Of a stretch of DNA of 64,000 nucleotides, positions 13,567 to 35,434 are shown one piece after another. Each line of letters begins with the position of its first letter. The first letter of the stretch is position 1. The stretch covers positions 41,292,001-41,356,000 of the forward strand of contig CM022670.1 of assembly GCA_012295275.1 (NCBI GenBank). Reading direction: 5' to 3'. The DNA is from Chrysomallon squamiferum. Taxonomy: Eukaryota; Animalia; Mollusca. The notes below the pieces were generated by a model. The model saw only the letters and a list, made by a program, of their open reading frames with translations, made no database searches and was not told the DNA's origin. A program made the position numbers and the translations under genes.

Positions 13567-13769
13567 CTTCGACCTGTCCCAGCCTTGACTGCATCTTTGT
13601 TGAAGTTTGTGTTTGAGAGTGAGAAGTCTTCAGCATTGGCACAGAGTAACTTGGGAAAAACCGACTGTCTCTCATATCTGTCAATGTCCTCATAGGTATT
13701 GCCGTACATGAACCCATTCATCAGAGTGGAGTGAGCGTGCAGGTCTATGTAGAAATCCACGTCAAACTT
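13567..13769 (-). CDS. AGBL4: AGBL4 exon 9 ([14 protein letters not shown]...KAGTGRR)
   Basis: ttgcag| acceptor, AG|gtaag donor, 203 nt; ORF 13563..13775. Confidence 0.96.
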
Positions 13770-16700
13770 CTGCAATTTAAATTATACATTTATTTCATAA
13801 AATGAAATGAATTACAAACTTCTTATGAATGTGAGTGAACATTTGTGTCTTTGTAAATGTATTCAAGTCACACATTCTAATTTTCATGTTGTCGAAAGAT
13901 TTGATTAAAACCAAACTTGTGCTAACAGATGTGAAAACAGTCTGTATGTATGTATGTAGATATATATCTGTCTCTGCGTCTGTCTGTCTGCATATATTTT
14001 CATTTTATATTTCTTAAATAAAGAATGTTTATTATCAACAGATTCATATCATTTAAAGAAACAGCAAATATGTAAATTTGTTTAACGTCCAAGAGATGAG
14101 TTATAAACAAAACTGTACTGAGTGTTTTCTCTGCACACAAACCTCATTTCTGTCTAGCTCCATCAGAAGGTTCTTGGTGGCATACAGGGTTGGATGGGCC
14201 CAGGGGGAGGGCTCCAGCCAGTGTCTGTTGAGATCAAACCCCATCAGCGAACATCTGAAACAAACAAGTGAAAACTAAGAAACAAGATACATGCTGTGTT
14301 ATACTGATGCACTTAAAGCATAAACTAAGAAACAAGATACATGCTGTGTTATACTGATGCACTTAAAGCATAAACTAAGAAACAAAATACATGCTGTGTT
14401 ATACTGATGCACTTAAAGCATAAACTAAGAAACAAAATGCATGCTGTGTTATACTGATGCACTTAAAGCATAAACTAAGAAACAAAATGCATGCTGTGTT
14501 ATACTGATGCACAAATAACAAATTATTACACATCATCTCAGTGACAGTGTTATGAGTCCAAGGCTTGATGGATCGTAAGATCAATTCCCGTCTCTGTGCT
14601 TCTGATAGCCAAAGACTTTTCTTGGCTTTGGGTAGATGATACAGGGTATGATATAGTTATGTTTTGTAGTTATAATAATTATTAATAATAAAATATGTTT
14701 AGATATCCTTAACACTCCTCAGTAAAATGTAACTGCTGCAAAAATATATTTCTATTATACTACACGTTTTATATATTTAGACTTTTAAACGTTATAAGCA
14801 AATAAACAAATGATTATATGATAGCATAAAGAAGTAAATAAATGTCAGTTAATAGAACAAGTAAATATAATAAAGAAGTAGATAAATGTTTTTTGTTCTT
14901 ACCTGTAATTACCTAAGAAAACCCCATCTGGGTTGAGCATTGGAACAATTTTAAAGATGATGTAATCTCGAAGTATTTTTGCTATTGGGTGATTGCTGAT
15001 AAGAAAGTCAATTATACCTGAAACAAGAAAAACAGTTCATGTTTGAGACAATTTCTCAACATATAACAACTCAAAAAAACTGGAGATATAAATAAAACTA
15101 TCAGATCCAATCTATTCTTTGTTCTTTTGTCTTCACTGAATATATTAATGTTTGAAGACAGTCAGTCATAACTGAAATATAACAGAATAAAATAATCTGA
15201 CAAATATAATTATTACTCAGAAATTAATGAGGTACTGTAGTGCAATGAAAAATTAATTTTATCTGGCAATGGACTGAAATTCTGGAGACTTCTTTTCCAG
15301 CTCTATCAAATTTTCATATTATATTATATATTATATTTCAAACATGACATTATATTCAAAATCAAAAGTGAAAGATTGTTTTTTTTGGCTTGACCTTTTT
15401 TTTTACAGCTTTAAGCATTCAGCAGTGTCAAAATTATTAATTCTTTCTTGTTTTTGTTTTTTAACAAAACTGCTGATGTCAGGGTATTACTTTAACAAAT
15501 AAAAGAGAAAAGAATTTCTTGTTCCAGTGGGACAGCAACTTCAGGAGACATTTAGGTTTTTTTCTACTACAAACATTCTGATGATATAAATAAGTTTTTC
15601 TATGGAAAATATGGCAGTCCACTGTCAAATTAAAAAATTATTTCTAATGATCTGCAAGACAGGAGACATTTTCGTGTAAGGAGAAAGGAGTTTTACTTGA
15701 GGTTTACCTTGACATACAAATGATGACGGAGTTTCTCCAGGATGGACTCGGGCAGTGATGAAGACAAGTTTCTGTTTTTCCTCTGACTCATTCTCCAGAT
15801 TGTCAGGATGTGTGATTGTCAGCAGATCCAGTCTCCTCTGTTGCTGTTAACAAACACATTCACAATGATAAAATACCTTTTCTGTTTTCTACTTCTCTCT
15901 AAGACATTCTACACATTTTCACATTAAAGGTTTTAGTTATTAAACTGTTCAGGTGTCACTAACACAGCCCATTACAGATTTCATCACTTGTTTTGTTTTA
16001 TTTTTGTCCTATGATGCTTATCTTAGCTAACGAAAAAAAGAATGGAATAATATTCTAGCTGATGTTTGGAGATTAACATTTCTCTTACTGTGCATTTTAT
16101 TTTTGGACTCAATTATGATGTATCTCAGACATGGCTGTCATGACAATGCTATACTCACTGATAGCAAAAGTAAGCAAGCAAAAGAAAACACATTATTGCA
16201 ATTTGCAAATACATCATTATTTTTAGATTAGTATGTAAAACATGAACTTGTAGATGATACAGTCACATGTAAATGAGATAAAGGAAAAATGGAATGTTTG
16301 TGATGTACATGGCTTGCTGTTCAGTATTTATTATCAGAAAAGGTTTGTTTCTTGTTCCACATAAGACAATCATTTAGAAGTGTATAAAATCCATTTAGAT
16401 TATTTGATATTGTTTTCAAAATGGAAAATGTTTAACATTTATCTGATTCAGCTTTTTAAAATCGATATTTAATTATTATTTACTAAAACATGTTTTAACA
16501 AATTTATGGTTACTGGGATTTCTTAGGCTATACTCAGTAAGACAGGCCTGACAGACTGCAGGATCAACCCTGCATTCTGCCCTATATGGCTGATATGTGT
16601 TCCAGCCAGTTATAAACAAAAATGGCTTATTAAAGTTTGTAAAGTGAAATTACATGAGAAGGTGCATATAAAAACTAACTTGCTGCTTATCCATAACAGT

Positions 16701-33000: not shown

Positions 33001-35434
33001 CATACTCACGTTATTGTGAAATAGCATCTAGATGTAAGTGAAAATAACTTTCTGCATTTTTGTTTGACTTTTTGTTTTGTCTGGAACTTGTTGTGTTGTT
33101 TTTAAAGATTCTTAAAATTTCAGAGTGAGGAATTGCAGTCCATAGTGGTTTCTGTGAAAGGTTTCTAAAAGATATACTTATTGTATATATTATCAAAGTG
33201 AACTTTACACATTTTCAGGATTATCCAAAGGGGTAGGCTTCATACGATTTGACCAGAGAATTGAAGCTGAGCGAGCTATTGCCAAGCTAAATGGCCACAT
33301 CCCAGAAGGAGCAACCGAAGGCATCACTGTTAAATTTGCCAACTCGCCCAGTTCGAACAAAAATGTGACAACTCTATCTCCAATGGCATTGGCAGCTACC
33401 TACGTGTCACCGACCAGGAGGTATTTTGGACCAATTCATCACCCAACAGCTGCAAGCAGGCTGAGGTTAGTTGATGGTTGTACACACCCATTACTTGTCC
33501 GCTCTCTGTCTCTCCCAGAACAAATTGAAAGTCTTGTCTACTGAGTGAAAAACGGAACCAAACCAGCAATAAGTTAAGATCCCAATTTTTACAGGTTTCT
33601 CAGACACAGCAAAATTTTTTATATTTTGCAAACAAATCTCTTTATTTCAGTTTAGCCAGCAAAAGTAATCAACAGAGAGAAAAACAATCACTTTTGTTTA
33701 AATTAAGTACAGATAAATATTTATTATTATGTGTCTGAGAAACTACTGACCTGTAAAAAGCAGTTCAAGATTCAGAAAGTTAGCTATTAAAGTTAATATT
33801 AAGCCAGTTATTTTGGCATTTGGCATTGTTTAGTGTGAAAGTGATCATTGGCTGTCAGAATTATTTGCAACCATCAAGTTTCCTTAAAATTTAATTTTCT
33901 TTTTTATAGACAAATGACTGGTCCCTCAAGGAAGCACTAATTAATTATTGCACTTTGTTCATTTACTTCTGCTTTTAACATTAATGTGTTTTTTTTTTTG
34001 CATTACTTTTTTTTTCCTTCTTTTCTGTTTTGAAAAAAATAAATTAATAATTTTGTATTATTTTTTGGCTCTAGTATTAATTTATTATCTTTTTAACTTT
34101 GGAAAACCTGTAATTTTCTTTTGGAAAATGATTTGGATTTATGTTTGAAATGTTTTTCAATTTGGTTTGGGTTTAAATTTGTTATTTAGATTTTGCTAAA
34201 TAAAGAATTAAGACTAGGAGACATGTGAATTTTCAACAGTTGTCAATCTTGTCTAATGGGTAGAGTTTTGAAGTCAAATTATTCCATGCAAACAATAAAT
34301 AAATGGTAGTACATTGTAGTTGATTAATAGTTATAAACAAGAAATTGGAAAATTTAATTTAAAAAAAAATTAAAATTTACTTTTTAAGGCATCAGTCATC
34401 TAATAAAGATGCAATAATTGAGCAAACAGCCACTTTCACAGTATATTTTTGAATATTTAATTGTCAGATGATCCACATGCAAATGAACATAGTTTCAGAT
34501 TTCCATCATTCTTTGATAACCAGTATTTAAAAAAGAAATTTTATTTACAAATTACATTCTTTTGCCTTTTTTATTTATTTTATTTCTGGTTTATGTTTGT
34601 TTAAATTATTTTAAATTTAGTTATTAATTAATGTTTTTGATGTTGTTTCTTCTTTTTTCTTTCTTTCTTTTTTTTAACATGTTTATGTATTGTTTGTAAA
34701 AAAGTGTATTTATTATTGGATGATTTGGTTGTTTATTTTTTCACCTGCCTGCAGTCTTTAATAATATAATAAAATTTAACTTATTAAAATTTTGTTCTTA
34801 AAGCAAGTACTTAAGTCAGTATTCATTCAGTTATGTAATATGATAATCTTTTAAAAGATTGTTCAATTATTATTTTATTTTTTCTGGTCATTTTATCTTA
34901 AACTATAAATCTAAAAGAGAATCTTAACATTTTAAATTGATAAATTATAATTAACAGATTTTTAAAAAACATTATTTTGAAAGAATGTTAATCTTCCATT
35001 TGGAATATTTCATTTCATGTTGAAAATTTTATTCAATTGCTTAGAGTTTGCCAAACTGAATATATTTTTTCAGGTACTCACCTCTTGAAGCTGGATTATT
35101 ACCAAGCACTATTCTCCCGACAGCTGCGGCTGCAGCAGCCGCTACAGCCACCAGTACCACCAGTGCACTGAATGGCACTGGTTGGTGTATCTTTGTGTAT
35201 AACCTAGCCCCGGACACGGAGGATAGTGTTTTGTGGCAGCTGTTTGGACCTTTCGGCGCTGTGCAAAGTGTCAAGGTGATTCGTGATTTCCAAACCCAGA
35301 AGTGCAAAGGATTTGGATTTGTCACAATGACCAATTATGATGAGTCAATGATGGCAATTCAGAGCCTAAATGGCTTCAGCCTCGGCAACCGTGTTCTGCA
35401 GGTTTCATTCAAAACCAACAAATACAAGTCATAA
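26878..35434 (+). CDS. elav: ELAV/Hu family neuronal RNA-binding protein (RRM1-RRM2-hinge-RRM3), 357 aa from ATG 26878 using either exon 4a or 4b
   Basis: Exons 26860-27085, 29490-29593, 30164-30317 or 30382-30535, 33219-33465 and 35074-35434 splice in frame. Hallmarks: [67 protein letters not shown]. Confidence 0.97.
29490..29593 (+). CDS. elav: ELAV exon 3 ([11 protein letters not shown]...LQNKTIK)
   Basis: ttttag| acceptor, AAG|gtatgt donor, 104 nt, RNP1 of RRM1. Confidence 0.97.
29927..29983 (+). repeat. 57-nt poly-T tract in ELAV intron 3
   Basis: Direct inspection. Confidence 0.9.
30164..30317 (+). CDS. elav: ELAV exon 4a ([13 protein letters not shown]...LYDQIT), mutually exclusive copy
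   Basis: ttttcag| acceptor, G|gtactt donor, 154 nt, intact frame. Confidence 0.9.
30382..30535 (+). CDS. elav: ELAV exon 4b ([13 protein letters not shown]...LYDNTT), mutually exclusive copy
   Basis: ttgtag| acceptor, G|gtcaga donor, 154 nt, intact frame. Confidence 0.92.
33219..33465 (+). CDS. elav: ELAV exon 5 (RRM2 second half plus hinge; [12 protein letters not shown]...[13 protein letters not shown])
   Basis: ttttcag| acceptor, AG|gttagt donor, 247 nt; absent from the ORF track but translates to a clear ELAV sequence. Confidence 0.95.
35074..35434 (+). CDS. elav: ELAV exon 6 (hinge end plus RRM3, stop)
   Basis: ttttcag| acceptor; YSPLEAG...GWCIFVYNL...FKTNKYKS*. Confidence 0.96.

What the first reader, a model, noticed from the sequence alone, without database searches (positions are those of the whole stretch)
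13567..35434. Head-to-head AGBL4-ELAV pair matches the human AGBL4-ELAVL4 arrangement: deep microsynteny
Seen: the AGBL4 ATG (22921, minus) and the first ELAV donor (23755, plus) are under 1 kb apart. Established: human AGBL4 and ELAVL4 are divergently transcribed neighbours at 1p33. Inference: the linkage may date to the bilaterian ancestor, kept by a shared promoter or by enhancers inside AGBL4 introns (bystander gene in a genomic regulatory block).
Basis: partly seen in the sequence, partly recalled or inferred. Interest (0 to 1): 0.7.

Follow-up and report, generated by a model that had tools for sequence, protein, structure and literature searches.

The report
Ancient head-to-head AGBL4–ELAV gene pair
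In this snail a tubulin-trimming enzyme gene (AGBL4) and the neuronal RNA-binding gene ELAV start back to back about half a kilobase apart; the two are also linked in worms, a centipede, starfish, amphioxus and fish, so the pairing likely dates to the ancestor of bilaterian animals and is likely kept by a crowded shared promoter region.

Summary
Confirmed. The window (close to Gigantopelta aegis) holds AGBL4/CCP6 on minus (ATG 22921) and ELAV on plus. RNA contigs confirm the 23755 donor and take ELAV exon 1 to 23452, 530 bp from the ATG. One CpG-rich block covers both starts. The linkage is old: same contig in 12 of 14 molluscs, head-to-head in a bryozoan contig (L040), and in 9 species across Bilateria in block 274 of Robert et al. 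2022's supplement. So it is catalogued, though not discussed there. It is unlinked in 4 of 4 cnidarians by accession number and lost in Patella, a rotifer and an annelid-like locus. ELAV is co-orthologous to all vertebrate ELAVLs, not ELAVL4 alone. The mechanism is untested: best guess is a compact divergent promoter with separate inputs, since AGBL4 carries its own Fox+RFX-like element in intron 1 (4 of 6 loci). A side find: ELAV has RNA-confirmed mutually exclusive RRM2 exons, also duplicated in bivalves and the bryozoan.

The parts
22897..22921 (-). AGBL4/CCP6 coding exon 1 (ATG 22921; MADKRGDS)
   Evidence: 9 of 9 residues match Gigantopelta P0243 start
20915..21040 (-). AGBL4 exon 2
20134..20258 (-). 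AGBL4 exon 3 (Pfam PF18027, below curated cut-off as a lone exon)
19128..19222 (-). AGBL4 exon 4
17946..18162 (-). AGBL4 exon 5
15708..15843 (-). AGBL4 exon 6 (RVHPGE; PF00246, below curated cut-off as a lone exon)
14903..15017 (-). AGBL4 exon 7 (NPDGV)
14143..14254 (-). AGBL4 exon 8
13567..13769 (-). AGBL4 exon 9 (DLHAH); last exon found, later exons are not in the window
22873..22893 (-). Fox-like site (22893-22887) plus X-box-like site (22885-22873) at the start of AGBL4 intron 1, conserved in two bryozoan loci and one annelid-like locus
   Evidence: motif names recalled
22501..24500 (.). single CpG-rich block (observed/expected 1.28 against 0.27 and 0.24 in the two gene bodies) spanning both gene starts; inferred unmethylated divergent promoter region
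23452..23755 (+). ELAV non-coding exon 1 (start is the furthest contig end, not a mapped start site)
25421..25546 (+). ELAV exon 2 (ATG 25496)
26860..27085 (+). ELAV exon 3 (RRM1 first half)
27826..27894 (+). predicted 69-nt cassette exon in the RRM1 loop; matches Gigantopelta isoform X1, not among the RNA joints listed
29490..29593 (+). ELAV exon 4 (RRM1 second half)
30164..30317 (+). mutually exclusive exon A (linker and first half of RRM2; 154 nt)
30382..30535 (+). mutually exclusive exon B (154 nt; 42 of 51 aa equal to A; 64-nt spacer)
33219..33465 (+). ELAV exon 6 (RRM2 end and hinge); RNA uses donor 33420, the donor at 33465 adds 15 aa as in Gigantopelta models
35074..35434 (+). ELAV last coding exon (RRM3, stop); RNA contigs run on to at least 36500

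Best explanation
AGBL4 (cytosolic carboxypeptidase 6) and ELAV lie head to head here with 530 bp between the AGBL4 start codon and the ELAV first exon, a linkage likely inherited from the last common ancestor of protostomes and deuterostomes and likely kept because both genes start inside one small promoter region where a break would damage one of them. Shown: gene models, orientation in this snail and a bryozoan, ELAV splicing, the CpG block, linkage in many species. Inferred: the region is one open promoter carrying two largely separate programmes. AGBL4 would be driven by a ciliary Fox/RFX module in its own first intron and ELAV by neuronal inputs. The pair is the core of a longer conserved run (POLR1A-AGBL4-ELAV-CAAP1-zinc finger-NIM1K) and can be broken when each gene leaves with its own elements.
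For: Both genes on one scaffold in Acanthaster, Saccoglossus, Latimeria, Capitella, Lingula, Lottia, Maylandia, Strigamia and Branchiostoma in Robert et al. 2022 block 274; three of those accessions are among my own hits (P0318, P0038, P0267). The same six-gene order appears in Lingula g3028-g3022 and Strigamia SMAR011086-093. Head-to-head in bryozoan contig L040. One CpG-rich block over both starts; in L040 the bin holding the AGBL4 ATG is the highest of 36. Fox+X-box-like composite just after the exon-1 donor in 4 of 6 distinct loci, including L061 where the head-to-head partner is enolase. Mouse Agbl4 has an RFX1 promoter peak and is listed as down in Rfx mutants (PMC7498320 supplement rows). 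Zebrafish ccp6 is enriched in ciliated, partly non-neural tissue (PMC4055263 passages). 5'-5' is the commonest and best kept class of ancient pairs (PMC3514665 section 7).
Against: No start site was mapped and no co-expression or reporter data exist for this locus. Orientation was seen directly in only two animals; the published table and locus tags give none. The pair is unlinked in Patella vulgata and P. caerulea and absent upstream of AGBL4 in rotifer-clade L035/L036 and in L061, so the constraint is not absolute. Six neighbours keep their order in Lingula and Strigamia, so slow rearrangement or a DMRT-centred block could carry the pair passively. The composite is missing in L051 and L044; window against L040 is not significant by shuffling (389 of 2000), only window against L041 is (1 of 2000). 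No other non-coding similarity was found across the promoter region. In stickleback bend5 lies between the two genes.
Confidence: 0.55

Rival explanations
1. Genomic regulatory block: ELAV (or the nearby DMRT genes) is the target, and AGBL4 is a bystander whose introns hold its enhancers.
For: Intron 9 of AGBL4 must exceed 13.5 kb while the other 8 are 373-2102 bp, if the assembly is right. Block 274 includes DMRT genes in Acanthaster, Latimeria and Maylandia. A conserved fish element lies in an elavl4 intron (PMC10516590), and a tested Elav-like element is listed for amphioxus (PMC5010895 table).
Against: The bryozoan AGBL4 spans about 4 kb with short introns and keeps the pair. No conserved intronic sequence was seen at the 5' ends of other introns (16 of 16 comparisons not significant). 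AGBL4 did not occur in the supplement of a chordate GRB paper (PMC7530604), which however counts transcription-factor-type targets.
Confidence: 0.2
2. True bidirectional co-regulation: one element set, including the Fox/RFX site about 570 bp from ELAV exon 1, switches on both genes in ciliated sensory neurons.
For: 530-bp gap and one CpG block; ccp6 is also expressed in CNS, eye and placodes; mouse Elavl4 has an RFX3 peak assigned at +1353.
Against: The element stays with AGBL4 where ELAV is replaced by enolase (L061). ccp6 is expressed in kidney and Kupffer's vesicle. Elavl4 occurs twice in the stored Rfx supplement, both times in peak tables and not in the expression table (file cut, and ependymal cells may not express it).
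Confidence: 0.15
3. Passive retention: a short intergenic gap is rarely hit by breakpoints, and the pair survives only in slowly rearranging genomes.
For: Losses in Patella, a rotifer and an annelid-like locus; flanking genes are also kept in slow genomes.
Against: The pair persists where its neighbours changed: a DENN-domain gene follows AGBL4 in L040, and DMRTA2-FAF1 flank it in fish. No CAAP1 was found in 28 kb after ELAV here (partial scan).
Confidence: 0.1

Closest known systems
Microsyntenic block 274 ('Planulozoa novel') of Robert et al. 2022, PMC8851819 supplementary file 4
   Same: Lists AGBL4 and ELAV in consecutive rows on one scaffold in 9 bilaterian species.
   Different: The main text names neither gene and the table gives no orientation or distance. 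Its cnidarian members (Exaiptasia, Clytia) hold neither gene, so the pair itself looks bilaterian.
Conserved ancient 5'-5' microsyntenic pairs of Irimia et al. 2012 (PMC3514665), e.g. HSPE1-HSPD1
   Same: Unrelated genes, divergent, gap under 1 kb, kept across phyla (section 7 read).
   Different: No shared function or co-expression shown; the main text does not name this pair and its supplement could not be read, so it may be listed there.
Vertebrate AGBL4-ELAVL4-DMRTA2-FAF1 locus (human 1p33-p32.3)
   Same: Same two families adjacent.
   Different: ELAVL4 is one of several ohnologues; BEND5 is inserted; human AGBL4 is megabase-sized (recalled) against about 9 kb for exons 1-9 here.
Tandem-duplicated mutually exclusive exons (U2AF1 exons 3/Ab; seen as a search listing); honeybee elav splicing (PMC6915785 passages)
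   Same: Equal-length homologous exons, one used at a time.
   Different: The bee figure legend describes variable parts 3a and 4a-d, not a duplicated exon; here the whole linker-to-beta2 exon of RRM2 is duplicated.

Membership tests
AGBL4/CCP6 (M14D cytosolic carboxypeptidase) | CCP N-terminal domain plus M14 domain with zinc and substrate motifs | tested here: met
   PF18027 and PF00246 on single exons, below cut-off alone; RVHPGE, NPDGV, GNYR, DLNR, DLHAH present (motifs recalled)
AGBL4/CCP6 (M14D cytosolic carboxypeptidase) | closer to CCP6 than to other CCPs | tested here: met
   Named hits among the best 120 are CCP6/AGBL4, hypothetical, or BEND5-labelled models. The 96%-identical Gigantopelta protein scores 756-789 bits on shark and bird CCP6 against 191 on human CCP5. 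The tree held no CCP1/2/5 outgroup.
AGBL4/CCP6 (M14D cytosolic carboxypeptidase) | catalytic Glu exon and intact C terminus | tested here: inconclusive
   not in the window; present in Gigantopelta P0243 and P0250
ELAV/Hu | two tandem RRMs, hinge, third RRM; nearest solved relatives HuC, HuD, HuR | tested here: met
ELAV/Hu | one-to-one orthology with ELAVL4 | tested here: not met
   falls in the mollusc clade within protostomes; vertebrate ELAVL1 and ELAVL4 group apart (few named vertebrate rows, weak deep support)
Conserved ancient 5'-5' microsyntenic pair | adjacent or near-adjacent in several phyla | tested here: met
Conserved ancient 5'-5' microsyntenic pair | divergent orientation conserved | tested here: inconclusive
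   seen in window and L040 only; human recalled; others not visible
Bidirectional promoter | two start sites under 1 kb apart | tested here: inconclusive
   at most 530 bp between ATG and ELAV contig end; contigs cannot map starts
Bidirectional promoter | correlated expression or shared elements | not testable with these tools
   only assembled contigs were available
Genomic regulatory block | target-gene enhancers inside bystander introns | tested here: inconclusive
   no cross-phylum intron similarity except the intron-1 element; function untestable
Mutually exclusive exons | each exon joined to both flanks, never to each other; double inclusion shifts frame | tested here: met
   A and B joints in X1 and X2, A only in X3; no A-B joint among those shown, 28 joints not shown; A+B stops after 185 aa

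The most novel reading that the evidence does not exclude
A ciliary Fox-RFX element and the ELAV start have stayed within about 0.6 kb since the bilaterian ancestor because they jointly run a ciliated-neuron programme, a rare cross-phylum conserved promoter element; and lophotrochozoan ELAV has carried a two-way RRM2 exon switch since before molluscs and bryozoans split, tuning RNA targets by cell type.
Probability: 0.2. Interest if true: 0.72.

Novelty: new member of a known kind. Interest (0 to 1): 0.45.

Why it matters
ELAV is the standard neuronal marker across animals, and its upstream region is used to drive neuronal reporters (recalled). If that region has been shared with a ciliary gene since the bilaterian ancestor, it gives a small, defined sequence for testing how neuronal and ciliary programmes were wired, with natural controls where the pair broke (Patella, L061, L035). 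The linkage alone is one of hundreds of catalogued ancient pairs. The parts that my searches did not find in print are the intron-1 element shared by three phyla and the duplicated RRM2 exon.

Tried and rejected
No genome was held, so synteny rests on locus tags, accession numbers, contig lengths, one published table and metagenome contigs; accession distance is only a proxy for position. RNA support for AGBL4 splicing and its 3' end could not be obtained; faint depth at 22484-22967 is not used, and contig depths were not used to rank the genes. Glandiceps has both genes on one 28.8-Mb contig but accessions about 330 apart, so it says nothing on adjacency. L051 (5.2 kb upstream), L044 and L041 show no ELAV but are too short to judge. 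The X-box scan (4 matches, 0.31 expected) used a pattern fitted to this site and is not counted as a test. Pfam scan of 150 selected frames outside the two genes found only repeat-driven or sub-threshold matches; CAAP1 motifs recalled from memory found nothing. Supplements of PMC4729200 held no ELAV or AGBL4; a paper on HuD first exons was not held. Exon trees of 51 aa separate A from B only weakly (72 and 25; 47 and 34), so the single-origin claim leans on order, length, phase and diagnostic residues. Literature searches: AGBL4+ELAVL4+synteny, microsynteny+ELAV+AGBL4 (14), ELAV+dmrt+synteny+amphioxus (38, none), Agbl4+Elavl4+promoter+HuD (40), ELAV+mutually exclusive+RRM2+mollus (45, none), ELAV+duplicated exon (70); by titles and abstract starts none discusses the pair or the exon switch. 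Subscription journals are largely not covered.
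Full report
Anatomy. The window is AT-rich animal DNA. The last ELAV exon is 99% identical to Gigantopelta aegis ELAV and the peptidase 96% to Gigantopelta CCP6, so it is a close relative of that snail; no genome was held. On minus, nine GT-AG exons from ATG 22921 to 13567 give an open AGBL4/CCP6 frame. The later exons, including the one with YTLEVS, are not in the window: tblastn and an HMM of that region gave nothing better than E 1.5, while a control HMM found its exon at E 6e-26. Either intron 9 exceeds 13.5 kb or the assembly is faulty; CpG depletion continuing below 13.5 kb (0.36) fits the first. On plus, ELAV has three RRMs and HuC, HuD and HuR as nearest solved relatives.

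In 3 of 3 RNA runs laid, contigs join 23755 to 25421 and 25546 to 26860, and exon 1 reaches 23452, 23466 and 23482 (one study). The gap from the ATG is 530 bp. CpG observed/expected is 1.28 over 22501-24500 against 0.27 and 0.24 in the two gene bodies. By established knowledge of invertebrate gene-body methylation this suggests one unmethylated promoter region; that is inference.

Age. Among 14 mollusc species where both proteins came with a usable contig length, 12 share it. Tags are adjacent in Elysia crispata (RRG08_056043/056044) and Batillaria (BaRGS_00015882/00015883) and two apart in Sinanodonta; both Patella species are unlinked. Haliotis rubra and H. cracherodii were left out because their ELAV rows pool several species. 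The supplement of Robert et al. 2022 (PMC8851819; I saw rows of file 4, which was cut when stored, and main-text passages) puts both genes in block 274 in Acanthaster, Saccoglossus, Latimeria, Capitella (prefix CAPTE, labelled Capsaspora in the table), Lingula, Lottia, Maylandia, Strigamia and Branchiostoma; Euprymna and Ptychodera show ELAV only. I saw all 19 and 18 rows of the two orthogroups and 120 of 129 hits for '274'. Lingula and Strigamia share the order POLR1A, AGBL4, ELAV, CAAP1, zinc finger, NIM1K. The text names neither gene. Of 79 metagenome loci, 3 had 10 kb upstream of AGBL4 and 1 (L040) holds ELAV, on the opposite strand, head to head; its AGBL4 groups with Bugula and Watersipora at support 1.0. 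In cnidarians the accessions are thousands apart in 4 of 4 species (Acropora cervicornis, Pocillopora damicornis, Exaiptasia, Nematostella), but a second cnidarian ELAV paralogue (recalled) was not seen. I put bilaterian origin at about 0.9. The snail ELAV sits among protostome ELAVs, apart from vertebrate ELAVL1 and ELAVL4, so it is a co-orthologue.

Losses. Upstream of AGBL4, rotifer-clade L035 has an M1 aminopeptidase and annelid-like L061 an enolase, both head to head. AGBL4 can do without ELAV.

A regulatory clue. Right after the exon-1 donor the window, L040, L041 (same as L042) and L061 carry a Fox-like site followed by an X-box-like site; L051 and L044 do not. The pattern was drawn from the first three, so L061 is the only independent hit. 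It occurs 7 times in 853,502 bases scanned, 5 of them at this place. By shuffling, window against L041 is significant (1 of 2000), against L040 not (389 of 2000), and 16 of 16 comparisons of other introns are not. Motif names are recalled; Fox and Rfx co-locating at cilia promoters is from the abstract start of PMC5245798. Mouse Agbl4 has an RFX1 promoter peak and is listed as down in two contrasts of the Rfx mutant table (PMC7498320 rows, column heads not seen). Zebrafish ccp6 marks ciliated tissue, neural and non-neural.

Mechanism. I favour a compact divergent promoter with separate inputs (0.55) over an enhancer block (0.2), true co-regulation (0.15) and passive retention (0.1). None was tested by function.

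Side finding. ELAV has two tandem 154-nt exons for the linker and first half of RRM2. They match at 43, 45 and 27 of 51 first, second and third codon positions, are 64 nt apart, and shift frame if both are used. RNA contigs join each to both flanks (A and B in X1 and X2, A in X3). In 34 mollusc rows, 22 are A-type and all have Leu28 with Gln49; none of the 12 B-type rows has Gln49. Both types occur in Patella, Haliotis, Pomacea, Batillaria, Bradybaena, Dreissena and Mya. L040 has two copies of the same length, phase and order, scoring as A then B; tree support is weak. The RNP2 strand is identical in A and B here, so changes fall in the linker, helix and loop (positions by alignment to HuD).

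Verdict. Real, old, and already catalogued though not discussed in what I could search; supplements of Irimia et al. 2012 that I could not read may list it too. The conserved intron-1 element and the exon switch add modest interest.

Noticed in passing
window 30164-30535; L040 5345-4762 (minus): Tandem duplicated, mutually exclusive RRM2 exon of ELAV, RNA-confirmed here, with both types in gastropods and bivalves and two copies in a bryozoan; not found in two literature searches.
   Followed up: yes
window 22873-22893; L040 9834; L041 1444; L061 1241: Fox-like plus X-box-like composite at the start of AGBL4 intron 1 in three phyla.
   Followed up: yes
window 1-13566: No AGBL4 exon 10 or later and no other recognised gene in 13.5 kb; long intron or assembly fault. 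An exact 423-bp doubled segment at 8078-8924 inside a 27-bp satellite may be an assembly artefact.
   Followed up: partly
window 33420 and 33465: Two donors in the ELAV hinge exon differ by 45 nt (15 aa); RNA contigs show the short form, Gigantopelta models the long.
   Followed up: partly
window 27826-27894: Predicted 69-nt cassette exon adding 23 aa to the RRM1 loop; Haliotis and Dreissena isoforms have other inserts at the same place.
   Followed up: partly
window 35435-40000: CpG depletion runs on to about 39-40 kb with three AATAAA at 39657-39680, which may mark a 3' UTR of about 4 kb; beyond 40 kb CpG is near expected (0.93) and no gene was recognised.
   Followed up: no
window 18366-19138: A 35-bp minisatellite of about 23 copies begins at the donor of AGBL4 exon 4 and repeats part of the exon end.
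   Followed up: no
L061 354-881; L035 6406-9688: Where ELAV is absent, AGBL4 is still head to head with another gene (enolase; M1 aminopeptidase).
   Followed up: partly
window 22980-22995 and 23210-23225: An E-box-like and an E2F-like word (names recalled) lie in the gap; not conserved in the loci compared.
   Followed up: no
PMC8851819 supplementary file 4: Capitella rows (CAPTE) are labelled Capsaspora owczarzaki; cnidarian ELAVs sit in a different block (3973) with scallop and squid ELAV-family genes.
   Followed up: no
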